A stretch of 64,000 nucleotides of DNA, taken from contig WTGP01000012.1 in the NCBI GenBank assembly GCA_011523505.1, forward strand, positions 83,038 to 147,037, read 5' to 3'. Positions 5,722 to 28,048 of the stretch are shown here, in pieces. Source of the DNA: Gammaproteobacteria bacterium. GTDB lineage: Bacteria; Pseudomonadota; Gammaproteobacteria; Steroidobacterales; Foliamicaceae. The translations under genes and the position numbers were made by a program. The notes under the pieces are model-generated. The model saw nothing but the letters and a program-made list of their open reading frames with translations, ran no database searches and was not told the origin of the DNA. Within the stretch, counting starts at the first letter, position 1. Every line of letters begins with the position of its first letter.

Positions 5722-6093
5722 CTATTGCGGCGTCGGTGGTTCGGCTTTATGTCCTTGATTCGTCATTACTGGCTGATCTCGCTCAAGGACTTCCAGATAT
5801 GCCCCTGGCTGAACCTTCTCAATCGCGGATTTAATGGTATCAACCTGACGTGAGACGCGCGGCCAATCCGGCGCGACCACTATTATCGCGAGCCGCCTGC
5901 CCTGTAAGTTCTGTTGAAACTGAATGCCTTGGTCTGTTGTGGGCAATATGTCATAGCCTTCTTCTTCGGCCAAATCCAGAAGTTCTCCGTTTCGAAGCGT
6001 TTGCCATCCAAGATCTTTGACGAGATCAACAATGTGGCCTCTAAGAGCGTTCCGCAACGGCGCGGGAGTGCCCTGGTCGAACAGTATTCTCAA
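5722..6093 (-). CDS. DUF5615-family PIN-like putative toxin
   Basis: 123-aa ORF starting MRILFDQGTPAPLRNALRGHIV, typical of DUF5615/Mut7-C-like proteins. It has a 4-nt overlap with the upstream DUF433 gene. Confidence 0.65.
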   Translation of the reverse strand: MRILFDQGTPAPLRNALRGHIVDLVKDLGWQTLRNGELLDLAEEEGYDILPTTDQGIQFQQNLQGRRLAIIVVAPDWPRVSRQVDTIKSAIEKVQPGAYLEVLERDQPVMTNQGHKAEPPTPQ

Positions 6094-6332
6094 AGACGGA
6101 GTTCTTGAAGTACGGGGGCCTTCATTTCGCGGGCTTCGTGTTCAATCACAGCTTCAACCTGCTCACGTGTCGCCCCGGGGTACCACTCCAGGAATTGGTC
6201 AATGGTCGCACCTCGCTTGAGGTTTTCGAAGAGAGTTGCCACGGGAATTCTCGTGTTGCGAAAAATCAGCGCTCCACTCAACTTGTCAGGATCGCGCTCA
6301 ACGGCACGACAAGTATTCCAGTCAGTCGCCAT
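6090..6332 (-). CDS. DUF433-family putative antitoxin
   Basis: 80-aa ORF. GALIFRNTRIPVATLFENLKRGATIDQFLEWYPGATREQVEAVIEH matches the DUF433 pattern as I remember it. Confidence 0.7.
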   Translation of the reverse strand: MATDWNTCRAVERDPDKLSGALIFRNTRIPVATLFENLKRGATIDQFLEWYPGATREQVEAVIEHEAREMKAPVLQELRL

Positions 6333-6445: not shown

Positions 6446-6928
6446 ATGATGAGTGAGCGCCGGCAATCGAAAGCAATAGCTGCCAGTGAAGTGCCGCCAA
6501 GTGTCAAAGCGTCGAACTATCCGGAACCGTACGCGAGCCAGATGAACAAGCGTGAGAAAAGGAAGATAGGTGATTTTTTCGGCCTCAGGAATTTCGGCGT
6601 GAACCTGACCAGGCTTGCCCCCGGTGGTCGGTCTGCGCTAATGCACGCTCACAGCAAGCAAGACGAACTGATCTATGTCCTGCAGGGCGAGCCGGCGCTT
6701 GTCACCGAATCCGGAGCGCGACCGCTGGCGCCCGGCATGTGCGCCGGTTTCCCCGCGGGAGGCGAGGCGCATCACCTGGTCAACCATACCGACAAGGAAG
6801 TGGTTTTCCTGGAGATCGGTGACCGGACACCGGCTGACGAGGTGAACTATCCAAATGACGATCTCCAGGCCGTAATGGGCCAGGATGGACACTGGCAGTT
6901 CATGCGCAAAGACGGGACGCCTTACTAG
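6446..6928 (+). CDS. cupin domain protein
   Basis: 160-aa ORF with two-His cupin motifs (HAHSKQDELIYVLQGE ... GEAHHLVN). Confidence 0.7.
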   Translation: MMSERRQSKAIAASEVPPSVKASNYPEPYASQMNKREKRKIGDFFGLRNFGVNLTRLAPGGRSALMHAHSKQDELIYVLQGEPALVTESGARPLAPGMCAGFPAGGEAHHLVNHTDKEVVFLEIGDRTPADEVNYPNDDLQAVMGQDGHWQFMRKDGTPY

Positions 6929-6995: not shown

Positions 6996-7421
6996 TCATT
7001 GCTTTCGGGTTATGCCAAGCATCTTCTCAATTGTTTCAATCGCTAGAGGACCGACCTTGTCCAGCAACCCGACTACCAGTGGCTCACCCAGAACCTGGGC
7101 GGCCACTGTTCTGGGCTTGCCTCTTTCGACAAGTGCTAGCCAAAAATAGTCGTCTGCAATCGTGTATTCACCATCCCAAACATAGAGCCATGGTTGGGCG
7201 CATTGATCGTTTTGCCATGCTTCCCACATCGACTTGATAATCTTTTCCCCAACTTCAGAATTTTCTGGACGAAAATGCTCGTATCTCCGCTTAATTATTA
7301 CTTCCTGGAAATTAAGGACGACACCGTAAACCGGTATCTCACCCTTTACGGCGCGATTGAGTAAGTCCTGAAACAGGCGATCGTCTGGCGGCCGGAGGCT
7401 CGTATCTAGTCTTGTTGACAT
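6996..7421 (-). CDS. hypothetical protein (weak ParB/Srx-like resemblance)
   Basis: 141-aa ORF. YVWDGEYTIADDYFWLALVERGKPRTVAAQVLG loosely resembles ParB-like nuclease N-domains. This is speculative. Confidence 0.4.
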   Translation of the reverse strand: MSTRLDTSLRPPDDRLFQDLLNRAVKGEIPVYGVVLNFQEVIIKRRYEHFRPENSEVGEKIIKSMWEAWQNDQCAQPWLYVWDGEYTIADDYFWLALVERGKPRTVAAQVLGEPLVVGLLDKVGPLAIETIEKMLGITRKQ

Positions 7422-7830
7422 CTGAGCAAATCAGTCCGTTTCCGCTGAACCGAAAGCAGTGGGTTGCATCAAACGGCTGACAGAATTGTGATTGCTGAAT
7501 CTCAACGGTACTTTATCAATGCTTCAGATTTACGAGCGGTCGCCCCTACGCCATCGGAAGGAAGCAAACGTCGTCGCCATGAGCAGGAATATTATCTTTC
7601 CACTTTCGAGGCCGGAGCCAGCATACATGCAACAGTAGCGGTCGGGCGCCGATCTTTCGGCCTAATTTGGTTCGCTAGAGACGAGGGAAAAACCGGTTAA
7701 GGGTGGGAAAATTCTCAGCCCAGATGGAGCCGTTTATGGAAGAGAATTCAAGAATACGGGGAGCAGATCACAGAATACAAGAAGCAAAAGGCAATCACAT
7801 GCGGTCAAAGTCGGTATGCTCTATGCCACA

Positions 7831-8874
7831 TCATGGACACGCCGGGCATGCTGGCGAAACATCCGTCACATCGACGCCAAATGTAGCTGCGTCAAAGTCA
7901 GTTGTCATTCGTAAGTGTCCTTCCTGCAAGTCTCTTACGTTTGCAGTGAACATCTCTCGGGACATTGCATACATACCTGTCCGGGCGCCTTCGAAAAAGC
8001 AATTCCAAGCCGCAGCCGCATTCGCGTAGCCAAAAATATCGTCCAGGTCTGAAGAACTCAGTTCTTGAAGATCGTCGAGTCCGTTTGGAAACTTAGAGAT
8101 CAATGCTGCCGTGAACCAATCACCCGCACCGGCGCTATCCGCGATATTTTCTGCCAATAAAGCTGACCTGTAATTCCAACCACTCACTCGCCCCGCCAAC
8201 CGCGATCGAAATCGAAACCCGGAACTGCCGCTAGTCTGGATTTCGATTCTGGTACTGTCGCTAAACTCCATCGCGTTTAGCGGCTCAGGAAAGCGCTCAT
8301 CTGCGTACTTGACAATGTGAGCGATGCGCATTGCTTCGAGCATGTGCTGTGAGTTCACGCTGGCGCTGGGCTCGAATACCACTAGCGCACCCGCCTCGGC
8401 AGCGGCTTGGGCCAGCGTTAGCATCCCACGGGAGGCTCGATCAAGGAAAAAGACCGTTGGAGGAATCCAATGTGAGAGTGTCTCAAGCGCAGTATCGTTC
8501 CGTACAGCACGAAAACTAGGCAGCCGCGATCGGCAGTAGGGACACTGAATGGAAAAGCGATGTGACTTCATGTCCGCTGAATTTCGATTGATCCGATGCA
8601 CAATAATTGGCGTGGGAGCTTGGGGCCGTAGGGTCGCGTAATCTAGGTTCACGCCCAATTCCATAAGGTCGCGTCGTACGATTTGAGACGCAACATCACC
8701 ATTTAGCCGCGTGATTGGAAAGCTCTGCCAACCAAGAAAACTCAAGATTGCAAGAACATTGCCGCAAGTACCACCGGCAAACCATCGCGCCGGCTGTTCG
8801 TCATCGGGGCCGAAAATTAAGTCAAGTGTTAACAAGCCAGTGCCATAAACACGACGGGAATTTGCAGATGCCAT
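7831..8874 (-). CDS. PfkB/ribokinase-family kinase with CxxC insertion and C-terminal CxxC tail (gene 5 of the operon)
   Basis: Contains the GG..N motif (FAGGTCGNVLA), the anion-hole motif (DSAGAGDWFTAALI), CPYC in an insertion and CPACP at the extreme C-terminus. I prefer the ATG at 8874, which overlaps the upstream TGA by 1 nt; the track start is 8925. Confidence 0.75.
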   Translation of the reverse strand: MASANSRRVYGTGLLTLDLIFGPDDEQPARWFAGGTCGNVLAILSFLGWQSFPITRLNGDVASQIVRRDLMELGVNLDYATLRPQAPTPIIVHRINRNSADMKSHRFSIQCPYCRSRLPSFRAVRNDTALETLSHWIPPTVFFLDRASRGMLTLAQAAAEAGALVVFEPSASVNSQHMLEAMRIAHIVKYADERFPEPLNAMEFSDSTRIEIQTSGSSGFRFRSRLAGRVSGWNYRSALLAENIADSAGAGDWFTAALISKFPNGLDDLQELSSSDLDDIFGYANAAAAWNCFFEGARTGMYAMSREMFTANVRDLQEGHLRMTTDFDAATFGVDVTDVSPACPACP

Positions 8875-9968
8875 CAGCCAGTATTCGCCCCTCTGCCACT
8901 CGAATACGGCTCGCCCGCGAGCCACAGGTGCAGCAAGTTTACTTCACTTTCGGGTGCTTGTTCGATTAGATCCCAATCAACTCTGTAGGCGATTGACTCT
9001 ACATAACGAACCGGCAGGTCGCGCTCGATGGCTGCCATTACAGCACCGAGCGCCAGCGCCTTACTACCTGTTGGCGTCAGAAGCAATTGGGATCCGCCCG
9101 CTTCTTGGAAGACGACAGTGCGTTCATCGTCAATACGTAGCACGGTACGGTACAAATCAAGCGGATTGCCTTCAGCCGCGAAAATGACATTTCTTGGCGC
9201 CACCTGCCATGTATTGAGTATTTCGTCGGTGAAGTGCTCAAGTAGTCGATCGCCCGCTCGCGGATCTCGGGAGGGAAAGGGAAGTATTGGGCAAACGTCG
9301 TGTGGACGAATTTCGTCGTAGATTCGGTTTAATGCATCGCGCTGGTCAAAGGCTAATTGCGGCAACCAAAGCCTTGCTGATTCGGAGGTGCTTTCCAGTC
9401 CATATTTTCCCTTGAAGCCATAAATTTCTTTGGACTTGTCTAATGGCATGGCAGAAACGCTGCTATCAACAATGGAATTTTCTGCGAGAACAACATGCAT
9501 TTGGCGATGCTGCGGATTCTGATCCGCCCATTCCAGCACACAACGAATAATTGGAAAACTTATTCCAGACGATAATGCACTGACGTCAATAACGATGTCC
9601 GTCCAGCCGCTAGAGAGCTCTTGGTCGACTCTTGTAACAGCCGAACGCCCACCAACAACTGATAAGTCAGGGCTCAAGATATCAATAGGCACGACAACTA
9701 GGTCCTTTAGTTCGCTTGTCAAAGCCGCACGAATTGTATCGGCTCTCGATATCAAGTCCGGTGTCGTCTCGGGGCGTTCTTCTTTGAGCAGCAATGCTCT
9801 CAGGCGATTGCCAAGTAGTTTGTGGAGTTCTAGCGGAAAGAAAGGTGCCCGGGGATCAAACCCTGCCCCACCCAACAGTAGCACACGACGATCAGAATCT
9901 TCGAAATGCTCCCTCAGCAAGTCCTTGACGTTTTCACCTTGATGGCTAGGGCAGTTGATCCAGCGCAC
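8874..9968 (-). CDS. hypothetical protein, possibly a two-lobed Rossmann-like ligand-binding protein (gene 4 of the operon)
   Basis: 364-aa ORF with a GTG start at 9968 sharing 1 nt with the upstream TAG. The segments VLLLGGAGFDP, DIVIDVSALSSGISFP and LLLTPTGSKALALGAVMAAI are reminiscent of CARF/SLOG-like Rossmann strands. This is weak. Confidence 0.55.
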   Translation of the reverse strand: MRWINCPSHQGENVKDLLREHFEDSDRRVLLLGGAGFDPRAPFFPLELHKLLGNRLRALLLKEERPETTPDLISRADTIRAALTSELKDLVVVPIDILSPDLSVVGGRSAVTRVDQELSSGWTDIVIDVSALSSGISFPIIRCVLEWADQNPQHRQMHVVLAENSIVDSSVSAMPLDKSKEIYGFKGKYGLESTSESARLWLPQLAFDQRDALNRIYDEIRPHDVCPILPFPSRDPRAGDRLLEHFTDEILNTWQVAPRNVIFAAEGNPLDLYRTVLRIDDERTVVFQEAGGSQLLLTPTGSKALALGAVMAAIERDLPVRYVESIAYRVDWDLIEQAPESEVNLLHLWLAGEPYSSGRGANTG

Positions 9969-11884
9969 TATGCTCCTCGTCTGGCCAGCACGTCAGAAAG
10001 TTCGCCCACCGACCCTTCAATGAATCCACCTCGATAGAAAGGCAGTCCGTAGTGAAGAATGGACGCGCCCCCGAGCTCCACGAGGCACCACAATTTTCTC
10101 TTTGTCTTGTGGTTCGGCGCTAGTTGAATTGCATTGTACGCAATCCCAAACTGAAGCACTTGAGCCAGCCGCTCATGTTTCTGTGGCAACTCATCAAATT
10201 CTGACTGCAGAATTCCGTAGGCATTTGCACCGGCCCCCAGCGGGGCATTGTCCTTAAGTGTTTCATTTAGGCAATGCGATGAGATTAGTTTAATCAGAGT
10301 ACGCACATTTTCACATTCAGGAAAAGACCACGACTTGAGAATCTCCGTGCCACGTCCTCGGAGGAGTTGATGTTGTTCACGTGAACTCAACGAGACGGTT
10401 CGATTTCGCACAATTTTGATCTCGGCCTGCTCTACGAGTCGTTCTGCTATCTGCAAGAACAACTCCGCATTGTTTGAGCCGCTGTCGCACAGAGTGCTCA
10501 TGCCCCAGTAATAGGGGCGCCGGAACTTATGCATCAAATGTATTTGAGCGCCATGAGCTACGCCGCTATCGCACTTCAGCGGCTTGTTGGGCTCAATATC
10601 TTCACGATTGTTGGAAAACAGATCGCCTGGACGTACGCGGTTTGCGTAGCGGTGCAGCAATATCCGTTCCATTGCGATTTGGACATCCTCTCCGACATCC
10701 CTATCCGTTGTTCCCTTGACGTAGTTAGACACCAATTGCTTGATTTGCTCGCGCCGATGCTCGCTTATCCCGAATCGCATACAGTCCCGCCGAACAAGAT
10801 CCCGTAACGATGCTATTTGCCCGCTCGGAAGCTTCGGTGAGTCGTTAGCAAGAATTGATGCAAGCTCAGCAATTCCTCTCTGATCGAACGCGGGCATCAT
10901 GCTGATGTAGCGATTCGACATATCGCGCGCCATTTTTTGGAAGCGCTTACGGTCAACAGATCGTTTTTGATTACTCTGAAACCGGATCTCTGTGATATCC
11001 CGTTTTGTCTGAACCCGCATTAGATCTTCCAATGCGCGGCTTGGCACCCCATAAAGCACTTGCTCGGGCGACAATGCGTCAAGCCGCGTCATAATCCATC
11101 GACCGACGCGTAACTCGCGTCTAACCAACCACGACTTGAGGCAATCAAACTGTGCGACATGCAATTCATGAGCGTCGTCAAAAACGACCAACGGTCGCAG
11201 TTCGGAAACGAAATCGCCTAAGTCCACTTCGAATTTCTCGATAACGTCAAAGGGACGATACGGTGCTTTGACAACCGTCGGCAGTCGATCAATAGCTGGC
11301 GGAAGAAGCGCAGCGGAAATCTCATATATGGCGAGTTCCACTCGACGTGCTTTCTCATATAAGTTGTCGATACTGTCAACTCCGATGCTCAATGCTGCAG
11401 CTTCGGCGTCGCTTCGGGCGACAATAGTGACATCTTGAGAGGAATGACCCGCGGCCCTTAGGTTTTGGACCCAGGCTAGGCAGGCGCGTGCTTGTAGCAT
11501 TGATTCCAATAATCGAGTGCGTATTTCCTCTGGGTAGGGAAATTCCCAAAAGTCACGGTACTCACCGGTCAAGGGAATGCGACAGGTCAATGTTGCGGGC
11601 ACTCCGTCGCGTAACATCCCACAATCCGCAAGCGCCGCCGCGACATCTCTATACGAGGCCAGATCGATGTGGTTTAAGAGTGTTTTTACTGTGCGATATT
11701 GAAACAATCTAGCCAGTGTTGTCTTACCGCTTCCTGGTGTGCCGCTTATCATCACGAGGCGATCGTAAAGTCGATCACGGTTTTCCCGGAAGAAGACATT
11801 GATTGGAGAAGGTGTTATGGCAGCAAGAAAGCTCTCGTCGTCAACGAAAAACTCTGTGGCGCGTTTCTTGAACGGGTTGCTCAA
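9968..11884 (-). CDS. P-loop NTPase (AAA/ORC-like or STAND-like) (gene 3 of the operon)
   Basis: 638-aa ORF with Walker A (ISGTPGSGKTT) and Walker B (LVVFDDAHEL), plus a long helical C-terminal region. Confidence 0.75.
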   Translation of the reverse strand: MSNPFKKRATEFFVDDESFLAAITPSPINVFFRENRDRLYDRLVMISGTPGSGKTTLARLFQYRTVKTLLNHIDLASYRDVAAALADCGMLRDGVPATLTCRIPLTGEYRDFWEFPYPEEIRTRLLESMLQARACLAWVQNLRAAGHSSQDVTIVARSDAEAAALSIGVDSIDNLYEKARRVELAIYEISAALLPPAIDRLPTVVKAPYRPFDVIEKFEVDLGDFVSELRPLVVFDDAHELHVAQFDCLKSWLVRRELRVGRWIMTRLDALSPEQVLYGVPSRALEDLMRVQTKRDITEIRFQSNQKRSVDRKRFQKMARDMSNRYISMMPAFDQRGIAELASILANDSPKLPSGQIASLRDLVRRDCMRFGISEHRREQIKQLVSNYVKGTTDRDVGEDVQIAMERILLHRYANRVRPGDLFSNNREDIEPNKPLKCDSGVAHGAQIHLMHKFRRPYYWGMSTLCDSGSNNAELFLQIAERLVEQAEIKIVRNRTVSLSSREQHQLLRGRGTEILKSWSFPECENVRTLIKLISSHCLNETLKDNAPLGAGANAYGILQSEFDELPQKHERLAQVLQFGIAYNAIQLAPNHKTKRKLWCLVELGGASILHYGLPFYRGGFIEGSVGELSDVLARRGA

Positions 11885-11896
11885 TTGCCTTGCCGA

Positions 11897-13018
11897 CTAA
11901 TTGTGTCTCTGGTGTCGGCGAAAGAGGGGCCGCATTGCGATTTCTGCCTCGCCGCTAGATTCCGCCCAAAGCAGTGCAAGGGAATTGTTTGGTGTGTTGT
12001 GTTCCAAAACGAGTGGTAATGAGCAGGCTGCATACCCACGTTTCAAATTATCGATTCCGCATTCATTGAGGTGCTTCTCAGACTCTATGTTCGGGTCATA
12101 ATATTTTTCAGCTAGAGCTAGAAACTGAGGGTCTGTTTCACTGGTTATTTTGATTGAACTATCGAACACAGCGCTAAAGGAAAACTCTACGTCCCCAAAC
12201 CAGCAATTGCCTCGTTCACTCGCAGCGTGTTCCTCACGTTCAATCGCGGTGTGTTTGGCATGTTCCGTAGCGAGATAGTGATGAACGTAAAGTGTCCAAT
12301 TCTCCTCCATTGGATAGATATCCAGTTCTTGTCTTGCACGTTCCAGAGAATTCCAAAGCCGTATGAGTTTCCCCTTCCATTCTTCCGCGCGGGGCGGTTT
12401 CCGCAATAGGGAAGTACCGCTCGCAGTAAAGTCGTCGATCACAAAAAGGCAACGGAATCGAGCATCGCAATTTTCTGTGTCTTTGCGTAGATCATCCAGA
12501 AGATCTTGCCACTTATCAGGATCAATCTGAGTAAACCCAACAACTTGCTCGTTGGTCAGAGCGCCTTTAGCCGCATATCGCAGCAGGTCGGTTCTTGCGC
12601 CGTCGCTAAGACCCATGAATAGCACTTGCCGCAAACAGTGGGCGAACCTTTCGGTGCCCCCCGGGTGCGACCATAAGCGAAAACGCTCAATACCTAAATC
12701 ATTTGCTGCCATCTTGGCAACTGTCGGTCTTATTCGTTCGAAGTAGCAAAGATCTACAAGCTTTGATAGTTCCGCGGGTCCCACATATACCAGCCGCTTT
12801 TTTAAGAACTCGTAGGCTATTTGGCGTTCATCCGATGTTTCGAATTGGGTAAGCCAAGTGATAAGAGATTCCAGGAATTGAACCCCGGCGACAAAGTCGC
12901 GATAGCCGTCGTACTTGAATCTCGACATGAGTCGCAACCATTGGTACTCGGTTCGTGCATGATCATCAGACCAGTCCATAACGCTTCCCAGAGTTCGCAA
13001 ACAAAGTGCTTCGTTCAC
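11897..13018 (-). CDS. phosphoribosyltransferase (PRTase)-like protein with N-terminal unknown domain (gene 2 of the operon)
   Basis: 373-aa ORF with a PRPP-loop-like motif (CLFVIDDFTASGTSLL). GTG start at 13018 forms GTGA with the upstream stop. Confidence 0.6.
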   Translation of the reverse strand: MNEALCLRTLGSVMDWSDDHARTEYQWLRLMSRFKYDGYRDFVAGVQFLESLITWLTQFETSDERQIAYEFLKKRLVYVGPAELSKLVDLCYFERIRPTVAKMAANDLGIERFRLWSHPGGTERFAHCLRQVLFMGLSDGARTDLLRYAAKGALTNEQVVGFTQIDPDKWQDLLDDLRKDTENCDARFRCLFVIDDFTASGTSLLRKPPRAEEWKGKLIRLWNSLERARQELDIYPMEENWTLYVHHYLATEHAKHTAIEREEHAASERGNCWFGDVEFSFSAVFDSSIKITSETDPQFLALAEKYYDPNIESEKHLNECGIDNLKRGYAACSLPLVLEHNTPNNSLALLWAESSGEAEIAMRPLFRRHQRHN

Positions 13019-14922
13019 AATCGAATCCTTGCCACACCGTCTGTCGCTTGCATGCGATTCAAGTAGTACAGCGTGCCACTAACGTCTCTGCATCTGGCTG
13101 GAAGAAGATTCCAACAGGTTTCCGGGTCGGCCGACACTTCGCGCACGCTCAATCCCAGTGGTGATCGCAATAGCTCACAGTCATTCCCTGGCCACTGACC
13201 GCTGTCACCGATTCGAAGCACGCAGGATTCACTAATCGCAAATTCCTCGGATATAGCGGACACTAATGCCACCTTCGATACGCTCTTGGGTATGACATCC
13301 AAGGAGTGACCTGAAGCCATGACCTTTAATTTGCCGTCCGCTACTTCAGTGGCCAGCGCTTGGACTGCGGTCCATAGTCGTGTCATTTGCACAATTTGAG
13401 AAGGTCGAATCGAGATTTGCAGTGGATAGTTCCGAACGGCTGTCCCTTCTGTATTAATGGGGCTGCGTAATAGTCGTTTCCAGAATTGCTCCAGAATTGG
13501 ATCTAAGAAATCACCGTCAACTTCACGGTCGACATTGAGTCGAGCAATTTGTGATGCATTGTGGTACCCAAGCATTACTCGTGCTTGGAGCTCACGCGGA
13601 ATGATGGGTTGCAGTTCTTGGCGCGCCGAGTCACCTCTCCCGGTTGCGATGCCAATCGGGATACCACCTTTTAGTAACTCCACCAATCGCTCAGTAATCG
13701 CTTCGATAGGCGAGTTAAATCGTGCTTTGGTCGCAACAAGTGTGCCATCGTAGTCAAATACAATGGCGCGAATTGTGCTGCTGTTTAGTCGATTTCGAAA
13801 AGTTGAGTATTTCTTCAACCAAGTTGAAGAGGAGACATGGCGATCTCCTGTCACGCCAAGCGCATTTGCTTTACGGCCAATAATGGTTTGCTGGACCGAA
13901 CGACGCGCCATAGTACCTGCGAGGCGAGCGCGCAAGTGGTATAGCCTGCGACCAAATTCTGGGATACGCGGACGGCCTGGATCAATCCCGTGAAGGTCGC
14001 CCAGCCAACCGGCAATACGAATTGAAAAGTAAATCGACAGTACTTGGGCAATCGCAAAATTAGCGCCGAGCGGCAAAGTGACTCGCGGTACGTGTGTAGG
14101 TATGAGTTCCAGCGTTTGTCTCGCTAATTCTTGCTCTCCGGGGCCCACGAATGCCACAGCAAGACTCTCCGCGCCAAAACGATTGATCCAGTTATGCCGA
14201 CCGTGCGCGAAATTTCGAAAGTCTGACACGCTTGATGCAATCAGGGCGCTCTCGGTGAATTTTGATTCCAGGTCCAACGCTCCCGCTCTTCCGCTAGGAC
14301 CGTGCAAGATGATCGCATTGGAACGACCGTTCGCGGCCGACAATAATTTCTCCTGCAAACCTTCTTCCGTGAAATCGGTCTCGAAGGCGGATTGGATTAG
14401 TGTGGCCAAGCTTGGCGGCAGCGACTCGAATGACGCAGCGAGAATTACCGTCGAAACAAATAGCGAATTTGTTGCCAGGAAGCCGTCCTTCCCGATATTC
14501 GCGTCGAACGAAAAAATACGCTCAACCAATGCCTTGCGTGCATCCTTCTCGAGCGGACTGTCAATCCTTGAGCAGAAAACTGTCAGTTCATTAGCTTCAT
14601 AAATCGACGCGCACCTTAATGCTCGTCTTATGTCCAGGTTCCTGCCGGTCCCTGAAAATAGCCACAAACTGCAGGCCTGATCCTTGGGCACGGACGCTTC
14701 CAATTCGAGCGGGGTAACTGCGTACCCCGGAGATTTGTGGTAATTGCGATGGAGAGCAACCGCTGACGAAGCCGCAGAATAAGAGCCGCCTGAACCGCTT
14801 GCAATAAGTGTCTTGCCAGACTGATCCTGCCACAATTGCTGTAGCTGATCGCAACTCCATGTAGTTGCCCATTCATAGGCGTCTGGTAGTGAACGAAGTT
14901 CGTTCTTGTATGGTCGGCCCAC
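13015..14922 (-). CDS. SIS-SIS (phosphosugar isomerase/binding) domains fused to a HAD-IIB-type phosphatase (gene 1 of the operon)
   Basis: 635-aa ORF. SIS signatures are LIASGSGGSYSAA and LFSGTGRNLD. HAD motif I is IVFDYDGTLV, motif II is IGIATGRG, and motif IV is GDSGQWPGND. GTG start at 14922. Confidence 0.75.
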   Translation of the reverse strand: MGRPYKNELRSLPDAYEWATTWSCDQLQQLWQDQSGKTLIASGSGGSYSAASSAVALHRNYHKSPGYAVTPLELEASVPKDQACSLWLFSGTGRNLDIRRALRCASIYEANELTVFCSRIDSPLEKDARKALVERIFSFDANIGKDGFLATNSLFVSTVILAASFESLPPSLATLIQSAFETDFTEEGLQEKLLSAANGRSNAIILHGPSGRAGALDLESKFTESALIASSVSDFRNFAHGRHNWINRFGAESLAVAFVGPGEQELARQTLELIPTHVPRVTLPLGANFAIAQVLSIYFSIRIAGWLGDLHGIDPGRPRIPEFGRRLYHLRARLAGTMARRSVQQTIIGRKANALGVTGDRHVSSSTWLKKYSTFRNRLNSSTIRAIVFDYDGTLVATKARFNSPIEAITERLVELLKGGIPIGIATGRGDSARQELQPIIPRELQARVMLGYHNASQIARLNVDREVDGDFLDPILEQFWKRLLRSPINTEGTAVRNYPLQISIRPSQIVQMTRLWTAVQALATEVADGKLKVMASGHSLDVIPKSVSKVALVSAISEEFAISESCVLRIGDSGQWPGNDCELLRSPLGLSVREVSADPETCWNLLPARCRDVSGTLYYLNRMQATDGVARIRL

Positions 14923-15122
14923 TTCGATTAACAGGAAACGAAATATATTTCTCTAATGGATGTACATCTTAAGGTGAACTTGAGGCATTGGGAAATGAAA
15001 TGTTCCCAGAAAGAGTAACGCCCTTTCCGAAGCGCAATTGTTTTAACTTCGTCGCAGGAGAATCTTGCTGATAGTGGTCGCGGCGCCGGGGAGCGCGGAC
15101 ACTTAGATCTCGCCTTTATTTC

Positions 15123-15877: not shown

Positions 15878-16432
15878 CTACTTATCATCCGCTGTTGGCA
15901 ACCATTGAAGCTCGGCCTCGATCCGTCGACGATAGGCCGTATCAATCTGCCGGGGTGCCCGACGAATATATTGTTCTGCGTTGTCTCGTGCGGTCCCCGA
16001 TAGAGATCGAAGGTGCCTTAGTACGTCTCCTACGTCAGGTTGCCCTTTCGTACCGCCCTTGAGTCCTGGCGGCAACCCTGTCCAGATAACCGAGTCGATA
16101 TTTCTTGCACGCGCCCACTTGCTCAGTAGAGGTATCTCGGGTGGAGACTCCTTTCCCCTCGACCAACGGCCTATGTGTTTCTTCTTTGTGCCTTCCCGCC
16201 GTTTCAGTTGCTTTATCGCGACTTCGAGACAATCGCTGTCCATGAGGGTCCATAACGATCGCACGGGGCGGGCGTCAGGCGAGATTACCAATGTGATGCG
16301 ATCATCCTTGGATTGTCGCGCGAATTCGACTGGAATCATCGGACCGTCATCGGACCAGGACCGCTTTATTGGTAAGTCTCGAGGATCCCAGATTAGGGAA
16401 CCCCAGCCCAGACACGCGATGTTGTGGTTCAT
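15878..16432 (-). CDS. gamma-glutamylcyclotransferase (ChaC/AIG2)-like protein
   Basis: N-terminal IACLGWGSLIWDP resembles the ChaC/GGCT YGSLxW motif. ATG at 16432 overlaps the upstream TGA by 1 nt; the alternative GTG is at 16438. Confidence 0.5.
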   Translation of the reverse strand: MNHNIACLGWGSLIWDPRDLPIKRSWSDDGPMIPVEFARQSKDDRITLVISPDARPVRSLWTLMDSDCLEVAIKQLKRREGTKKKHIGRWSRGKESPPEIPLLSKWARARNIDSVIWTGLPPGLKGGTKGQPDVGDVLRHLRSLSGTARDNAEQYIRRAPRQIDTAYRRRIEAELQWLPTADDK

Positions 16433-17445
16433 CACCACGATGCCCTCTTCGCAGACCGGGCGTACTCGACATGTCTGGCGTGAGTTTCCGCGGTCACGGG
16501 TAGGGCGGCTGTTGTTATCTTTGCCCGGATCGCCTCCATCCTCTCTCGCATCAGGCTTCGACTCGACGATGCGCGAACGGAGAAGGCGATGTACTGGTGC
16601 AACTCCGCAAGGCTCATGCAGACGACGCCTCGCATTCGCCAGCCACGGAACCGCTTTGCCATATCCTCGTGCTCTTCAAACCGCACGAACTTCTCCTCCG
16701 TTTTCAGCTCGGCGTCGCCCACGAACACTGCAACGGGCCGGATTTCCCAAGGATCAACGACGCCGAGTTTGACCAGGGCCTTCGCGTGTCCTTCGTTCTG
16801 CAGCAGTGGATTGTAGAAAGCGAATCGCTTCGACTTGATTCCCATCATGCGGGACCACCGGCCCGCCTTGAACGATTGCGTCCACCGTTGCTGCCCGGGG
16901 CTTGCGAATATCCACCCGCCCATGTCCTTGGTCTCGATCACGAATACGCCGGCGGGCGAAATGAGGATGTGATCGATCTGTGCCGTCCCTCCCCCAGAGC
17001 GAAGCAGCACATTATTGAGCAGCGGCCAGTCCCGATAACGCCTCGTCAATACCGATTGGACCCGTCGCTCGCCGGCGTTTGCCTTCGGCGCGGGTTTCTG
17101 CAATACCGAAGTGGGTTTCGGACCGTGCCGATGCAGCGCCTCTGTCGGTGACGCGGCCCGGGTATCAGGCGTCGAAATTGGGGTTCTGCGTTTGCGGCGA
17201 AACAGAAGCAACAGTGCCACCACGACGAGTGCTCCTCCCAGCCACCCGCTCCAAGCGACAACTGCTTCGTCCCATCCAGGCGTAACCACTGCGTCATGGA
17301 CGACGATTCTCTGACCCACCTGCACATAGTCCGCTTCTTCGATCCGATTCCACTCCTGCAATTGCTCGACGGTGACGCCGTACCGCGCGGCAATTTCCGA
17401 GAGCGTCTCTCCCGGTTCCACGTGCACTTCTGTCGTTTCGCTCAT
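16432..17445 (-). CDS. LysM - TM - NERD domain protein
   Basis: LysM region (VEPGETLSEIAARYGVTVEQLQEWNRI...VGQRIVV), a TM helix (WLGGALVVVALLLLF followed by RRKRR), and a NERD core (AQIDHILISPAGVFVIETKDMGGWIF). Confidence 0.75.
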   Translation of the reverse strand: MSETTEVHVEPGETLSEIAARYGVTVEQLQEWNRIEEADYVQVGQRIVVHDAVVTPGWDEAVVAWSGWLGGALVVVALLLLFRRKRRTPISTPDTRAASPTEALHRHGPKPTSVLQKPAPKANAGERRVQSVLTRRYRDWPLLNNVLLRSGGGTAQIDHILISPAGVFVIETKDMGGWIFASPGQQRWTQSFKAGRWSRMMGIKSKRFAFYNPLLQNEGHAKALVKLGVVDPWEIRPVAVFVGDAELKTEEKFVRFEEHEDMAKRFRGWRMRGVVCMSLAELHQYIAFSVRASSSRSLMRERMEAIRAKITTAALPVTAETHARHVEYARSAKRASW

Positions 17446-17505
17446 TGCCCGTAAGCGATCGCTTCCCTCGGTAACGGCGACACGGATGCGCGATGCGTAT
17501 GAGAT

Positions 17506-18663
17506 TCAGCCAGAATCGCTCCCATCACCTACCGAAATGCCGCCCTGGGACCTCAATTGCTGATTTAGACGCGCAAGCGGTTCCGAGAACGCGTCCTCCA
17601 GTTTGACGAAGTACTCGCACAGCCACTCGATCATCTTGGGCCAGTTCTCGTCATTAAACCCATCAAACGGGTGCGCATAGCAGATTCGGCTCGCCTTCTT
17701 GTCGTCAAGCCTATGCCACTGGAATTCAGCACCAAAACGCTCTTCGATATCCTGCTTTTGCTGTTCGAGCTGATCGAAGATCCATTTGTTCTCATTTTGA
17801 GAACGCGTGAGGGAGAGTTCCACGCGCGCCTCGTTGTTGGTAAAAATCAGGTTGTAGGCGCAGCCCGATACACCAGTCGCGCTGGCCAGCCAGTGGAATT
17901 GGGACGGACTGATGTTCTCGTATCGCGAGATTCCGCGCCTTCGGAATTCCTCTTTCGTCCTCATCCAAAATGCCCGCCGCATCTCGTAACGGCGTTGTTG
18001 GGTGCCCTGCACCGACTTTTCCTCGGATTCCTTGGCCGCCATCCCGATCATGTAATCTTCCGCTTCGGGCATCGGGATGATCTGTTGCAGATCGATCAGA
18101 ACATCGTCGCCGAAACTATAGGGCACGACCCGGAAGCATTGCGCTCGAACTCCGTGTCCGATTAACCACAGTATCGTTGCCGTTACTTCCTTGCGGAAAT
18201 TCGCCGCGACCAGTATCAAACGCTGGTCATTACCCGCGTTCAGCACCATGTCGTCGAGATCTTCGACTTCTAGGAATTCGCACAGGTTCGTAACGGCGCT
18301 CTCACCGGTAGTCCACCGATCAAGGTACTTCTGATAGATTTCGACGATCTCCGACTTCTTAAGGCTGGAGCAATAGGCCACGTATTTAAGTGCTTGCCAC
18401 ACTACATCGCGGCCAGAATCGTCACGCTTGTTTTCGATGACCACCAGCCGACGTTCCTTGTCGAGCGCCAGCAGATCGAGGCGCTCGTTGGTGTCCGCGA
18501 ACCCGTCGAATTCCTTCTGGATGACCAGAAGTTCCTCGCCGAGCGCCTCCGGTGTGCGCGCCAGCCACTCCTGAAGGTGGCGCCGCTCGTGTAGATTCAG
18601 ATCGCTAAAGCGCTGTTTCTCAAGCGGGACGAGGCGATTTTCCGACAGGTTCACCTTGAACAT
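17506..18663 (-). CDS. PD-(D/E)xK nuclease-like N-domain with DUF4268-like C-domain
   Basis: 385-aa ORF. RLDLLALDKERRLVVIENKRDD gives a D...E-x-K motif. The C-terminal half resembles DUF4268 from memory. Confidence 0.6.
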   Translation of the reverse strand: MFKVNLSENRLVPLEKQRFSDLNLHERRHLQEWLARTPEALGEELLVIQKEFDGFADTNERLDLLALDKERRLVVIENKRDDSGRDVVWQALKYVAYCSSLKKSEIVEIYQKYLDRWTTGESAVTNLCEFLEVEDLDDMVLNAGNDQRLILVAANFRKEVTATILWLIGHGVRAQCFRVVPYSFGDDVLIDLQQIIPMPEAEDYMIGMAAKESEEKSVQGTQQRRYEMRRAFWMRTKEEFRRRGISRYENISPSQFHWLASATGVSGCAYNLIFTNNEARVELSLTRSQNENKWIFDQLEQQKQDIEERFGAEFQWHRLDDKKASRICYAHPFDGFNDENWPKMIEWLCEYFVKLEDAFSEPLARLNQQLRSQGGISVGDGSDSG

Positions 18664-23016: not shown

Positions 23017-23076
23017 TCGTTTCTCCCTAACGGCACATTTTGTGGCCGTGATAATTCCGTTGTGCTTCCTAGTGTG

Positions 23077-23523
23077 CTACCAACATCGCGCTTTGCAATG
23101 CGCTGTGCACTGGCGAGCCAACCCAATACCACGCACGATCTGAATCACGTGTACGAGCCAGTTATTCAGCACACGATTCCAAGGATGCTCGGACATCCAG
23201 CCTTTCGATGGTAATGATAATTTCCGTAATTTTGAACGAGTGAACTCGTTGATCTTCCTGAATGCCGCACTGTCCCTGATCCGATCCTCGCGCGGCTGAA
23301 GCAGCGTGTGTTCGATAGCGTATTCTCGCTCACCGACCTTGAGGCGCAGGTTCACGGGCGGACCGTTGCCGTCCCTCTCCGGATGCCGAATGCCTGAGCG
23401 CGTGCCGTTCGTGCAGATTTCGATGTGCCTGACTACAGTGTCGCAGGCCTTGCCTTCGCTATTTTTTTTGATGAGCATGGGCGCGACAGTGTAGGATGAA
23501 ATCGAGAGGCGGGCCATGGGCAA
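23077..23523 (-). CDS. hypothetical protein
   Basis: 148-aa ORF lying 109 nt downstream of the DUF6527 gene on the same strand. EREYAIEHT could be a degenerate nuclease-like motif. This is speculative. Confidence 0.4.
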   Translation of the reverse strand: MPMARLSISSYTVAPMLIKKNSEGKACDTVVRHIEICTNGTRSGIRHPERDGNGPPVNLRLKVGEREYAIEHTLLQPREDRIRDSAAFRKINEFTRSKLRKLSLPSKGWMSEHPWNRVLNNWLVHVIQIVRGIGLARQCTAHCKARCW

Positions 23524-23632
23524 TGGTTGGCCGGTTGCCTCGTCAGGATTCCAAATCAGGTTCGGGAACTGGCCACGCTCTGCTTTTTCCGCGTAGCATT
23601 TGCGGGCCGCCGTTGGGCGCCGCCCAGTGGCG

Positions 23633-27974: not shown

Positions 27975-28048
27975 TGGGCCGTGAGGGAATCGAACCCGCA
28001 ACCAATGGATTAAGAGTCCACTGCTCTACCTAGTTGAGCTAACGGCCC
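27975..28048 (-). tRNA. tRNA-Lys (anticodon CTT), no encoded CCA, C-U mismatch in T-stem
   Basis: I folded the reverse complement GGGCCGTTAGCTCAACTAGGTAGAGCAGTGGACTCTTAATCCATTGGTTGCGGGTTCGATTCCCTCACGGCCCA by hand. The anticodon loop is CTCTTAA. The T-stem GCGGG/CCCTC has one mismatch. The 3' flank is TCA, not CCA. Confidence 0.8.

What the first reader, a model, noticed from the sequence alone, without database searches (positions are those of the whole stretch)
7831..14922. Five-gene translationally coupled operon (SIS-SIS-HAD / PRTase-like / P-loop NTPase / unknown / PfkB kinase): candidate undescribed phosphosugar- or nucleotide-based conflict system
**Seen in the sequence.**
- Five minus-strand genes are packed with coupling junctions. 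These are GTGA at 13015-13018, a 12-nt gap at 11885-11896, TAG/GTG sharing 1 nt at 9968, and TGA/ATG sharing 1 nt at 8874.
- A 200-nt AT-rich region lies upstream and a ~400-nt non-coding gap lies downstream.
- The catalytic motifs look intact. These are HAD DxDGT plus GDxxxxxxD, the PRPP loop VIDDFTASGTS, Walker A/B, and the PfkB GG..N and GAGD motifs.

**Established knowledge.**
- A SIS isomerase (GmhA), a PfkB-type kinase (HldE/HldA) and a HAD phosphatase (GmhB) are exactly the enzyme logic of nucleotide-activated heptose biosynthesis.
- PRTase domains join a base or nucleophile to PRPP, and they occur as effectors in some retron and DprA-PRTase defence systems.

**Inference.**
- The operon could make a phosphosugar- or nucleoside-like small molecule, with a PRTase replacing the usual nucleotidyltransferase.
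- The 638-aa NTPase and the 364-aa unknown protein have no obvious metabolic role. They look like sensor or regulator parts.
- The neighbourhood is saturated with TA, RM and ubiquitin-like conflict genes.
- I cannot match this gene set to any named defence system from memory.
Basis: partly seen in the sequence, partly recalled or inferred. Interest (0 to 1): 0.9.

Follow-up and report, generated by a model that had tools for sequence, protein, structure and literature searches.

The report
Mobile five-gene phosphoribosyltransferase conflict cassette
This is a real, tightly packed five-gene cassette that moves between very different bacteria on plasmids and genomic islands; it most likely defends the cell by disturbing nucleotide-precursor (PRPP) metabolism, its protein families are already catalogued in databases, and nobody appears to have tested what it does.

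Summary

- **Conservation.** The same five genes in the same order form a 7.0-7.7 kb block in 59 of 80 fetched loci from about ten phyla. Flanks are unrelated and rich in mobile-element and defence genes. None of the 25 commonest flanking Pfam families is an LPS or sugar-catabolism family.
- **The "unknown" gene.** It matches PADLOC's CARF6 models (E = 3.6e-103).
- **The PRTase.** It is Pfam PRTase-CE and carries the Gx14PNN signature of retron type III-A PRTase effectors, which deplete PRPP during abortive infection.
- **The NTPase.** Its family is Pfam ORC-CDC6-like.
- **Variants.** PRTase, ATPase and CARF6 form an invariant adjacent trio. The SIS-SIS-HAD gene is always present. PfkB can move or be absent, and a NADAR gene is sometimes added.

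Best reading: a self-contained conflict module with a PRPP-consuming PRTase effector, gated by the ATPase and the CARF6 protein, with phosphosugar enzymes processing the phosphoribosyl product.

It is not undescribed at family level, but it matches no named or validated system. The mechanism is inferred, not shown.

The parts
13015..14922 (-). g1, 635 aa: N-terminal double-SIS phosphosugar-binding/isomerase module (about residues 1-340) fused to a C-terminal HAD-IIB (Cof/sugar-phosphate phosphatase type) domain (about residues 385-590).
   Evidence: - HAD: Pfam Hydrolase_3 5.8e-08; NCBIfam TIGR01484 HAD-IIB 43.2 bits against a cut-off of 41.8.
- HAD motifs DYDGT (13741-13755) and GD..ND (13180-13212) are invariant.
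- SIS: GSGGS loop at 14782-14796 is invariant.
- SIS: PF01380 hits 4 of 22 homologues, best 2.6e-06.
- SIS: a profile hits PDB 7kqa over residues 23-231, and the single sequence hits the glucose-6-phosphate-isomerase-like protein 1wiw at E = 0.031.
- The window protein itself does not reach the Pfam SIS threshold.
11897..13018 (-). g2, 373 aa: PRTase-CE family phosphoribosyltransferase-like protein. It has a conserved N-terminal extension (about 180 aa) and a type I PRTase core with the PRPP loop LFVIDDFTASGT (12413-12448) and the retron-effector signature Gx14PNN (11984-12037). Proposed effector.
   Evidence: - Pfam PF24390 at 64.5 bits against a cut-off of 27.
- PADLOC PRTase_III-A models at 7.5e-10 and 2.1e-09.
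- All 120 listed homologues carry PF24390.
- D195, D196 and G201 are invariant.
- Gx14PNN is present in 26 of 26 orthologues, including distant variants.
- The motif is defined for retron PRTase effectors in PMC12746101.
9968..11884 (-). g3, 638 aa: P-loop ATPase of the Pfam ORC-CDC6-like family. It has Walker A GTPGSGKTT (11717-11743), Walker B VVFDD (11168-11191), a long helical C-terminal half and a small terminal alpha/beta domain. Proposed sensor or switch.
   Evidence: - The window protein aligns full-length to PF24389 but below threshold (21.7 against 27 bits).
- Its 90%-identical relative and most homologues carry PF24389, and one UniRef name is 'ORC-CDC6 family AAA ATPase'.
- AlphaFold2 model: pLDDT 77.9.
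- Foldseek against PDB gives only weak matches (E about 0.04-0.2) to ORC1/Cdc6, RuvBL, RADAR RdrA and RFC.
8874..9968 (-). g4, 364 aa: stand-alone CARF6-family protein made of two Rossmann-like alpha/beta domains, with no effector domain. Conserved GAGFDPR loop at 9849-9869. Proposed small-molecule (nucleotide-like) binding regulator.
   Evidence: - PADLOC CARF6 models PDLC01916 at 3.6e-103 and PDLC01910 at 8.2e-93, both full-length.
- AlphaFold2 model: pLDDT 86.6, pTM 0.89.
- Foldseek top matches are tandem USP-like domains (NKCC/KCC C-terminal domain, tandem universal stress proteins), KaiC and LarE. No canonical CARF structure appears in the top 50.
- The family has 816 clusters at 50% identity, almost all 350-390 aa.
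7831..8874 (-). g5, 347 aa from ATG 8874: PfkB/ribokinase-family kinase with GGTCGN (8758-8775), the catalytic GAGD (8119-8130), and family-specific cysteines CPYC (8533-8544) and a C-terminal CPACP (7834-7848) that could form a zinc site.
   Evidence: - Pfam PfkB at 1.4e-10.
- A profile hits ketohexokinase, fructokinase and ribokinase structures, best 3.9e-10.
- Invariant G34, G35, N39, D246, G249, G251, D252, C111 and C114.
- Public gene calls give 347 aa.
14923..15122 (-). Upstream non-coding spacer, the presumed promoter region of the operon.
   Evidence: - 200 nt at 45% GC against 51% for the cassette.
- No sigma-70-like site above shuffled expectation, so promoter function is inferred only.
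7422..7830 (-). Downstream non-coding gap after g5, marking the end of the operon.
   Evidence: - 409 nt at 49.6% GC.
- No terminator-like hairpin was found there.
- Public gene calls place the next gene at 6996-7421.

Best explanation
The five genes form a self-contained, horizontally mobile conflict module, most likely anti-phage or anti-plasmid and of the abortive-infection type.

**Core.** The invariant core is the adjacent trio g2-g3-g4.
- g2 is a PRTase of the same clade as retron type III-A effectors. I propose it is the effector. When released, it consumes PRPP by transferring phosphoribose to an unknown acceptor, starving nucleotide synthesis.
- g3, an ORC/Cdc6-like ATPase, is proposed as the infection sensor or switch.
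- g4, a stand-alone tandem-Rossmann CARF6 protein, is proposed to bind a nucleotide-like ligand and gate the system.

**Accessory enzymes.** g1 (double SIS plus HAD-IIB phosphatase), g5 (PfkB kinase) and, in some variants, a NADAR N-glycosidase-type protein act on the phosphoribosyl product by dephosphorylation, re-phosphorylation or cleavage. This would either make the PRPP drain irreversible or set the level of the ligand that g4 reads.

**Shown.**
- Gene content, conservation and mobility.
- Intact catalytic motifs.
- Family assignments.
- Kinship of g2 with retron PRTase effectors.

**Inferred.**
- The defence role.
- Which protein is sensor and which is effector.
- PRPP depletion.
- All chemistry downstream of g2.
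For: **One selected unit.**
- The same order occurs in a 7.0-7.7 kb block in 59 of 80 loci at only 35-47% median identity. Hosts span Proteobacteria, Planctomycetota, Acidobacteriota, Chloroflexota, Actinomycetota, Nitrospirota, Gemmatimonadota and Spirochaetia.
- No other flanking gene family is shared by more than 6 loci.

**Mobility and context.**
- In the window, cassette GC is 51% against 67% for the host, inside an island that ends at a tRNA cluster.
- Window neighbours include an MmeI-type RM enzyme, NERD, a NucS-like/DUF4268 protein, ThiF plus DUF6527, and a DUF433/DUF5615 pair.
- Relatives lie on 19 plasmids, 9 of them conjugative.
- Immediate neighbours elsewhere are integrases, AbiEi/DUF6088, resolvases, patatin, ArdC, TIR, SLOG, Tn7-like genes, SIR2 and T4SS genes.

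**Effector assignment.**
- g2 hits retron PRTase_III-A models.
- All 26 orthologues keep the PRPP loop region and the retron-specific Gx14PNN motif.
- Retron-Eco11's PRTase effector needs its PRPP motif for defence, and its activation lowered PRPP by about 50% with abortive infection (PMC12746101).
- The ShosT PRTase toxin needs PRPP binding for toxicity (PMC12961424; PMC11961720).

**Core trio.** Variants keep g2-g3-g4 adjacent while PfkB moves or is lost and NADAR is added.

**Enzymes are active.** All catalytic residues are invariant.
Against: - There is no experimental evidence of any kind for this cassette.
- None of the five proteins matches a named defence system in PADLOC v2 apart from the CARF and retron-PRTase domain models.
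- There is no classical toxic effector such as a nuclease, pore, TIR or SIR2.
- The defence-island argument is guilt by association, and I ran no statistical control.
- The g4 model does not retrieve canonical CARF structures, so its sensor role rests on a database label and on the absence of other domains.
- Its many invariant charged residues would also fit an enzyme.
- g3's ORC/Cdc6 assignment is weak structurally (E about 0.04).
- Three dedicated sugar-phosphate enzymes are more than a simple PRPP drain needs, which favours the signal-synthesis rival.
- No relative is found in 50,697 phage records. That fits a host or plasmid defence but does not prove it.
Confidence: 0.4

Rival explanations
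1. Second-messenger reading. The four enzymes (PRTase, PfkB kinase, SIS, HAD phosphatase) together synthesise and turn over a novel N-ribosyl small molecule from PRPP. The phosphatase and the kinase (or NADAR) act as the on and off switch. g4 is its dedicated receptor, and g3 (alone or with g4) executes the response. This would be a signalling system whose messenger is made without a nucleotide cyclase.
For: - Every homologue listed for g4 is a stand-alone 350-390 aa protein, always next to the enzymes, and carries the CARF6 label.
- HAD phosphatase and PfkB kinase are opposing activities on sugar or riboside phosphates.
- PfkB can be replaced or accompanied by NADAR. From my own knowledge, NADAR is a family of N-glycoside/ADP-ribose hydrolases, so this looks like alternative ways of removing an N-riboside.
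- No cyclase, Cas10 or CD-NTase occurs in or beside the cassette.
- PRTase plus HAD has been proposed to make a nucleoside-like signal in Ter systems (PMC7824862; PMC5512222).
Against: - No effector domain is identifiable if g2 is only biosynthetic.
- g2's closest characterised relatives are effectors, not synthases.
- The CARF fold of g4 is not confirmed structurally.
- No product is known.
Confidence: 0.25
2. Ordinary accessory metabolism: a plasmid- or island-borne pathway for salvage or catabolism of a phosphosugar, an Amadori (fructosamine- or opine-like) compound or a nucleoside. This would be analogous to FrlD (PfkB kinase) plus FrlB (double-SIS deglycase), or to GmhA/HldE/GmhB.
For: - Three of the five proteins belong to sugar-phosphate enzyme superfamilies.
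- RefSeq names them 'sucrose-6-phosphate hydrolase', 'HAD hydrolase' and 'PfkB family carbohydrate kinase'.
- Many hosts are rhizobia with large catabolic plasmids.
- The FrlB/FrlD parallel is from my own knowledge and is untested here.
Against: - No transporter is conserved with the cassette, and a regulator was seen in only one variant locus.
- Flanks are unrelated from locus to locus and dominated by mobile-element and defence genes. No LPS, capsule or sugar-catabolic family is among the top 25.
- A 638-aa ORC/Cdc6-like ATPase and a CARF6 protein have no place in such a pathway, yet they form the invariant core with the PRTase.
- PfkB is dispensable in one variant.
Confidence: 0.1
3. Antiviral or antibiotic nucleoside production. 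The enzymes build a toxic nucleoside or nucleotide analogue (in the spirit of prokaryotic viperin products or nucleoside antibiotics) that blocks phage or competitor replication. The ATPase and g4 would act as regulators or self-protection.
For: - PRTase followed by HAD phosphatase is the standard route from PRPP plus a base to a free nucleoside (established enzymology, my own knowledge).
- A nucleoside 2-deoxyribosyltransferase gene is annotated near the cassette in two plasmid loci.
- A MATE efflux gene lies nearby in one locus.
Against: - No base-modifying enzyme (radical SAM, oxidoreductase, methylase) is conserved with the cassette, and no exporter is conserved.
- The nearby deoxyribosyltransferase and efflux genes are not conserved.
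Confidence: 0.08
4. Counter-defence carried by plasmids: a metabolite-reconstitution pathway (in the manner of phage NARP pathways) that rebuilds a nucleotide or NAD-type metabolite destroyed by the recipient's immune systems.
For: - The cassette is found on conjugative plasmids, once between the relaxase/coupling-protein genes and the T4SS genes.
- NADAR and PRTase chemistry touches ADP-ribose and NAD metabolism.
- Phage NAD-reconstitution pathways use PRTase-like enzymes (abstracts of PMC12774641 and PMC13464706).
Against: - The cassette is absent from all 50,697 phage records.
- Most copies are chromosomal islands.
- The ATPase and CARF6 core is unexplained.
- g2 belongs to the retron effector clade rather than the Nampt/Namat kind.
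Confidence: 0.05

Closest known systems
Retron type III-A systems with PRTase-like effectors (for example Retron-Eco11, PMC12746101)
   Same: - The g2 PRTase domain hits PADLOC PRTase_III-A models.
- It keeps both the PRPP loop and the retron-effector signature Gx14PNN.
- In the retron, this effector causes PRPP depletion and abortive infection.
   Different: - No reverse transcriptase or ncRNA in the cassette.
- g2 has a different, conserved N-terminal extension in place of the retron effector's wHTH and C-terminal tail.
- Its partners are an ATPase, a CARF6 protein and sugar-phosphate enzymes.
- The final P of the published PNNxP motif is absent.
ShosTA (PRTase toxin plus DprA-like antitoxin; PMC11961720, PMC12961424)
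   Same: - A defence system whose toxic part is a non-canonical PRTase.
- That PRTase must bind PRPP, and its acceptor substrate is unknown.
   Different: - g2 gave no hit to any ShosT model in PADLOC at E <= 0.1.
- There is no DprA/SLOG antitoxin in the cassette.
- The cassette has five genes rather than two.
CARF- or SAVED-sensor second-messenger systems (type III CRISPR, CBASS, Panoptes)
   Same: g4 belongs to a family labelled CARF6 in PADLOC's CARF model set. It is a Rossmann-like, probably ligand-binding protein in a conflict-type context.
   Different: - No Cas10, mCpol or CD-NTase cyclase.
- No CRISPR genes were found beside the cassette.
- g4 has no fused effector.
- The g4 model does not retrieve solved CARF structures.
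RADAR (RdrA AAA+ ATPase plus RdrB adenosine deaminase)
   Same: - The logic of a large ATPase paired with a nucleotide-metabolising enzyme as effector.
- RdrA is among the weak structural matches of g3.
   Different: - No deaminase.
- The match to RdrA is not significant (E 0.06-0.6).
- Three further genes are present.
Ter-system nucleoside-like metabolite module (PRTases plus HAD phosphatases, predicted; PMC7824862, PMC5512222)
   Same: PRTase plus HAD phosphoesterase combined in a stress or conflict context and predicted to make a nucleoside-like compound.
   Different: - No TerB, TerC, TerD or TelA components.
- Different PRTase clade.
- The Ter prediction is itself untested.
ADP-heptose pathway GmhA/HldE/GmhB, and the Frl fructosamine kinase/deglycase pair FrlD/FrlB
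   Same: The same enzyme superfamilies: SIS, PfkB kinase and HAD phosphatase.
   Different: - Double SIS fused to a class IIB HAD.
- No nucleotidyltransferase.
- Never found in LPS or sugar-utilisation loci among the loci examined.
- PfkB is dispensable in a variant.
- No transporter.

Membership tests
Pfam PF24390 PRTase-CE (g2) | Score above the curated gathering threshold over the whole domain | tested here: met
   64.5 bits against 27, covering residues 54-368 on profile positions 3-253 of 253. All 120 listed homologues carry PF24390.
Type I PRTase catalytic core (g2) | PRPP-binding loop: hydrophobic strand, two acidic residues, then a small-residue/Gly/Thr turn | tested here: met
   LFVIDDFTASGT at residues 191-202. 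D195, D196 and G201 are invariant. Enzyme activity is not testable here.
Retron type III-A PRTase-like effector clade (g2 domain) | Signature motif Gx14PNNxP next to the PRTase core (PMC12746101) | tested here: met
   Gx14PNN is present in 26 of 26 orthologues. The final P is replaced by L, V or I, so the motif is met except for its last position. PADLOC PRTase_III-A at 7.5e-10.
Retron system (whole system) | Reverse transcriptase and ncRNA/msDNA encoded with the effector | tested here: not met
   No protein of the cassette has an RT domain, and no further gene is conserved beside it. The ncRNA was not searched for specifically.
Pfam PF24389 ORC-CDC6-like (g3) | Score above the gathering threshold; Walker A and Walker B present | tested here: inconclusive
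   - The window protein scores 21.7 bits against a cut-off of 27, although it aligns over residues 36-595.
- Its 90%-identical relative and most homologues carry PF24389 in precomputed tables.
- Walker A and B are invariant.
- Structural matches to ORC/Cdc6 are only E about 0.04.
CARF6 family as modelled in PADLOC (g4) | Full-length match to the family HMM | tested here: met
   PDLC01916 at 3.6e-103 over residues 6-349 on profile positions 3-339 of 345. PDLC01910 at 8.2e-93.
CARF superfamily in the structural and functional sense (g4) | CARF-type Rossmann fold that binds a cyclic or linear oligonucleotide | tested here: inconclusive
   - A confident model (pLDDT 86.6) shows two Rossmann-like domains.
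- The top 50 PDB matches are USP-like tandem domains, KaiC, LarE and methyltransferases, not solved CARF proteins.
- There is no sequence match to any solved structure.
- Ligand binding is not testable here.
SIS domain (g1 N-terminal half) | Match to SIS profiles and the phosphate-binding Ser/Gly loop | tested here: inconclusive
   - The window protein has no Pfam SIS hit.
- 4 of 22 homologues hit PF01380, best 2.6e-06.
- Weak PDB hits to 7kqa and to the glucose-6-phosphate-isomerase-like protein 1wiw.
- The GSGGS loop is invariant.
HAD-IIB phosphatase (g1 C-terminal half) | Motifs I-IV, and a score above the TIGR01484 cut-off | tested here: met
   43.2 bits against 41.8. DYDGT, T427, K550 and GD..ND are invariant.
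PfkB/ribokinase kinase (g5) | GG..N motif and the catalytic GAGD; score above the Pfam threshold | tested here: met
   41.4 bits against 25.8. Both motifs are invariant. Substrate unknown.
ADP-heptose (GmhA/HldE/GmhB) type pathway | Nucleotidyltransferase step and an LPS or capsule genomic context | tested here: not met
   There is no nucleotidyltransferase in the cassette. Flanks show no LPS or capsule families among the top 25, and no conserved neighbour.
Type III CRISPR / CBASS / Panoptes signalling | A nucleotide cyclase (Cas10, mCpol or CD-NTase) encoded with the sensor | tested here: not met
   No such domain occurs in the five proteins and no neighbour is conserved. Whole genomes were not examined.
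Any named anti-phage system in PADLOC-DB v2.0.0 | The component proteins match that system's models | tested here: not met
   g1 and g5 have no hits. g3 has only P-loop noise (E >= 0.002). g2 and g4 hit only domain-level models, retron PRTase and CARF6. Newer releases and DefenseFinder were not available.

The most novel reading that the evidence does not exclude
The cassette is a new class of immune signalling in which the messenger is not made by a nucleotide cyclase. Instead a PRPP-dependent phosphoribosyltransferase builds it. A phosphatase and a kinase (or a NADAR glycosidase) toggle it between ribotide and riboside forms. A stand-alone tandem-Rossmann CARF6 receptor coupled to an ORC/Cdc6-like ATPase reads it. 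This would be a complete, portable make, sense and erase circuit for a so far unknown ribosyl metabolite.
Probability: 0.2. Interest if true: 0.85.

Novelty: new variant of a known kind. Interest (0 to 1): 0.62.

Why it matters
If the cassette is a defence system, it would add a widespread module to the group of immune systems that act on nucleotide precursors.

- **Spread.** At least 205 of about 185,000 species-representative genomes carry it, and the CARF6 component forms 816 protein clusters at 50% identity. Hosts include both Gram-negative and Gram-positive bacteria.
- **PRTase effectors.** It would show that the poorly understood retron-type PRTase effector can be driven by a sensor other than a retron. 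That offers a second, independent handle on what this effector really does to PRPP.
- **CARF6.** It would give a first function to the CARF6 family and to the bacterial ORC/Cdc6-like ATPase family.
- **Possible new metabolite.** The three sugar-phosphate enzymes hint at an undiscovered ribosyl metabolite, which could serve as a signal or as an antimetabolite.
- **Testability.** Culturable hosts carry the cassette, including Rhizobium leguminosarum, Agrobacterium tumefaciens, Terriglobus roseus DSM 18391 and Burkholderia gladioli BSR3, so it can be tested directly.

Tried and rejected
**Literature.**
- Full-text searches for 'PRTase-CE', 'CARF6', and combinations of PRTase, CARF, SIS, ORC, ribokinase and PfkB found no paper on this cassette.
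- The three papers most likely to have described it are not in the held library. These are Burroughs et al. 2015 NAR (PMC4678834), Makarova et al. 2020 NAR (PMC7498327) and Burroughs & Aravind 2020 J Bacteriol (PMC7685563).
- Prior description could therefore not be verified. My recollection that the CARF census or the Aravind-group surveys mention such a neighbourhood is unverified.

**Searches and structure comparisons.**
- The first genome scan with the single g4 sequence found nothing. It worked only with an alignment.
- Profile searches of g2 and g4 against PDB sequences gave nothing meaningful, and the g3 profile hit only short P-loop regions.
- Foldseek on the g4 model gave only generic Rossmann matches in both PDB and BFVD. 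For g3 it gave no match at E <= 0.001.
- hhalign of the two halves of g4 found no internal duplication, so 'tandem CARF pseudo-dimer' is not supported by sequence.
- g3 could not be modelled from the locus-derived alignment because the tool rejects such sequences. I rebuilt the alignment from database proteins.

**Readings considered and rejected or set aside.**
- Heptose or LPS pathway: no context and no nucleotidyltransferase.
- DNA modification-restriction: no nuclease or methylase is conserved.
- NARP-like counter-defence: absent from phages.
- A sixth conserved gene: none was found, and NADAR is only occasional (4 loci).
- The promoter and terminator scan was uninformative.

Full report
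**Observation**

- The junctions are as described:
  - GTGA overlap at 13018-13015.
  - TAG, a 12-nt spacer and a TTG start at 11884.
  - TAGTG sharing base 9968.
  - TGATG sharing base 8874.
- The mechanical ORF for the last gene begins at GTG 8925. Public gene calls on identical metagenomic contigs give 347 aa from ATG 8874, and homologues align only from about residue 11-28.
- Public calls start g2 13 codons late. M1, L7, L10 and W16 are invariant among homologues, which supports the overlapping GTG.
- The upstream spacer is only mildly AT-rich, at 45% GC against 51%.
- Consensus promoter and terminator scans were uninformative.

**What the five proteins are**

- **g1:** a C-terminal HAD-IIB phosphatase above the NCBIfam cut-off. 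Its N-terminal roughly 340 residues are a double SIS. The evidence for the SIS is:
  - an invariant GSGGS loop;
  - SIS Pfam hits in 4 of 22 homologues;
  - weak PDB hits to 7kqa and to the glucose-6-phosphate-isomerase-like protein 1wiw.
- **g2:** matches Pfam PRTase-CE well above threshold and also PADLOC's retron type III-A PRTase models.
- **g3:** a Walker A/B ATPase. The window protein aligns end to end with Pfam ORC-CDC6-like but just below threshold. Its 90%-identical relative and most homologues carry that family in precomputed tables.
- **g4:** It is a full-length, E = 3.6e-103 match to PADLOC's CARF6 models.
- **g5:** a PfkB kinase with a family-specific CxxC...CPACP cysteine set.
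- **Structure models:**
  - g4 (pLDDT 86.6) has two Rossmann-like domains. The nearest solved folds are tandem USP-like domains, KaiC and LarE rather than canonical CARF proteins.
  - g3 (pLDDT 77.9) gives only weak ORC/Cdc6, RuvBL, RdrA and RFC matches.

**Conservation and mobility**

- An alignment-based scan of one genome per species found relatives of g4 in 205 genomes, and I fetched 80 loci.
- In 59 of these, all five genes are present in the same order within 7.0-7.7 kb. Median identity to the window is only 35-47%.
- Of the other 21 loci:
  - about 11 are cut by contig ends;
  - about 9 are interrupted or degraded;
  - one is complete but spans more than 8 kb.
- Hosts include:
  - Alpha-, Gamma- and Deltaproteobacteria;
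  - Planctomycetota, Acidobacteriota, Chloroflexota and Actinomycetota;
  - Nitrospirota, Gemmatimonadota, Spirochaetia, Poribacteria and Entotheonella.
- No flanking gene family is shared by more than 6 of 80 loci, so the cassette is self-contained.
- The g4 family comprises 816 clusters at 50% identity (404 at E <= 1e-30), nearly all 350-390 aa and stand-alone.
- The commonest immediate neighbours are:
  - phage integrases, DUF6088/AbiEi, resolvases and patatin;
  - ArdC/MPTase, RadC and DNA methylases;
  - SLOG, NADAR, TIR, M78 peptidases and ParB.
- No LPS, capsule or sugar-utilisation family is among the 25 commonest flanking families.
- Relatives lie on 19 PLSDB plasmids, 9 of them conjugative, and on none of 50,697 phage records. 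Examples:
  - between the relaxase/coupling-protein genes and the VirB genes in Sulfitobacter;
  - beside Tn7-like genes in Agrobacterium;
  - beside a SIR2 gene in the actinobacterium Rathayibacter.

**The window's own context**

- The cassette is 51% GC, inside a roughly 28-kb region of 55% GC.
- That region ends at a tRNA Lys/His/Arg/Pro cluster (27973-28441), where GC rises to 67%.
- Neighbours include:
  - a DUF433/DUF5615 pair;
  - a NERD-LysM protein;
  - a DUF4268/NucS-like protein;
  - an MmeI-type RM enzyme;
  - a ThiF/E1-like gene with DUF6527;
  - DUF5131.

**Variants reveal the core**

More distant plasmid-borne versions, at 22-37% identity for g1-g4 and up to 42% for PfkB, keep g2-g3-g4 adjacent in that order and always keep g1. 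The other components vary:
- In Bradyrhizobium sp. 187, PfkB sits directly after g1.
- In Sphingomonas parapaucimobilis, g1 and PfkB are separated from the trio by a NADAR gene and an HTH regulator.
- In Burkholderia gladioli BSR3, PfkB is absent and a NADAR gene precedes g1.

The same NADAR subfamily, 57-75% identical across unrelated hosts, also flanks two canonical cassettes, L011 and L066. PRTase, ATPase and CARF6 therefore form the core. The sugar-phosphate and glycosidase enzymes are a more flexible periphery acting, by inference, on an N-ribosyl(phosphate) compound.

**Link to characterised systems**

- Retron-Eco11 (type III-A3):
  - It uses a PRTase-like effector with a PRPP loop and a clade-specific Gx14PNNxP motif.
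  - Mutating the PRPP motif abolishes defence.
  - Activation lowered PRPP by about 50% with abortive infection (PMC12746101).
- All 26 g2 orthologues I examined carry Gx14PNN, lacking only the final P. An invariant DD sits in the PRPP loop.
- The ShosT toxin of ShosTA is another PRTase whose toxicity needs PRPP binding and whose acceptor is unknown (PMC11961720, PMC12961424).
- g2 therefore belongs to a clade whose characterised members are toxic effectors of defence systems.

**Mechanism**

I commit to the following, at about 0.4 confidence.
- The cassette is a defence or conflict module in which g2 is a PRPP-consuming effector.
- g3 is the ATP-dependent sensor or switch, and g4 is a small-molecule-binding regulator.
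- g1, g5 and NADAR process the phosphoribosyl product, either to make the drain irreversible or to set the level of a ligand read by g4.

The main rival (about 0.25) is that the enzymes exist to make and erase a novel ribosyl messenger for g4. Two points favour it: there are more enzymes than a simple drain needs, and kinase and NADAR appear interchangeable.

Lesser rivals are ordinary metabolism (about 0.1), antiviral nucleoside production (about 0.08) and plasmid counter-defence (about 0.05). Each is disfavoured for the reasons given under its entry. None of these has experimental support. Only gene content, conservation, family membership and context are shown.

**Novelty**

- The cassette is not undescribed at the family level.
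  - Pfam PF24389 and PF24390 are carried by most or all of the close homologues of g3 and g2.
  - g4 is the CARF6 family.
  - UniRef already uses the names 'PRTase-CE domain-containing protein' and 'ORC-CDC6 family AAA ATPase'.
- The source papers are not in the held library, so I could not establish what function, if any, was predicted.
- No named system in PADLOC v2 matches.
- No held paper reports an experiment on it.
- I rate it a new variant of a known kind: nucleotide-precursor-targeting defence with a retron-type PRTase effector and a CARF-like component. Interest is 0.62.

Noticed in passing
window 27973-28441 (-) and the GC profile around 28 kb: Four tRNA genes (Lys-CTT, His-GTG, Arg-TCT, Pro-TGG) sit exactly where GC jumps from about 55% to about 67%. 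Positions 1-28,000 therefore look like a genomic island inserted next to a tRNA cluster. No integrase was identified in the part I scanned.
   Followed up: partly
window 18983-21814 (+): A 943-aa MmeI-type (type IIL) combined restriction-modification enzyme, with MmeI_N, helicase-spacer, methyltransferase, TRD and C-terminal domains all detected.
   Followed up: partly
window 22021-25179 (-): A ThiF/E1-like gene (24055-25179) is followed by a DUF6527 protein. The ORF listed from 24658 overlaps it, so the real start is probably later. Two ORFs without Pfam hits follow (23077-23523 and 22021-23016).
   Followed up: no
window 16432-18663 (-): A LysM-NERD nuclease-related protein (16432-17445) lies next to a DUF4268 protein with a weak NucS-like endonuclease N-terminus (17506-18663). 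They are also adjacent on the other metagenomic contigs.
   Followed up: no
window 5722-6332 (-): A DUF433 (80 aa) and DUF5615 (123 aa) pair with overlapping stop and start, the layout of a type II toxin-antitoxin-like pair. A cupin gene follows at 6446-6928 (+).
   Followed up: no
window 25662-27647 (+): A DUF5131 protein (E = 8.9e-97) is immediately followed by a 419-aa protein with a weak GMT-like wHTH domain. Function unknown.
   Followed up: no
L085 3412-4005, L087 4925-5413, L066 4310-4840, L011 12134-12673: One NADAR subfamily accompanies the cassette in four unrelated hosts. Its members are 57-75% identical to each other, much more than the 22-47% identity of the cassette's ATPase (g3) and CARF6 (g4) genes to the window in those plasmid loci. 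In B. gladioli it is present where PfkB is absent. This suggests recent shuffling of an optional sixth component.
   Followed up: partly
window 8533-8544 and 7834-7848 (g5): The PfkB kinase has an invariant CxxC insert and a conserved C-terminal CPACP. Together they look like a four-cysteine zinc site, which from my own knowledge is not typical of PfkB kinases. The insert gives weak hits to ribosomal protein eS26 zinc ribbons.
   Followed up: no
L009, L020, L046, L048, L053, L054, L055, L067, L079: Several genomes carry interrupted or partly deleted cassettes. In some, g1 is missing and g2 truncated. In others, several kb are inserted inside or between g2 and g3. The cassette therefore decays or is disrupted fairly often, as expected for a costly accessory module.
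   Followed up: no
L081-L084 (public contigs identical to the window): The window's organism appears in several independent metagenome assemblies (ENA ERZ23487589, ERZ27234780; JGI 3300033058; Logan SRR10694905). Gene calls for g1, g2 and g3 differ between assemblies (g1 558 or 635 aa; g3 594 or 638 aa), so database entries for these proteins are often N-terminally truncated.
   Followed up: no
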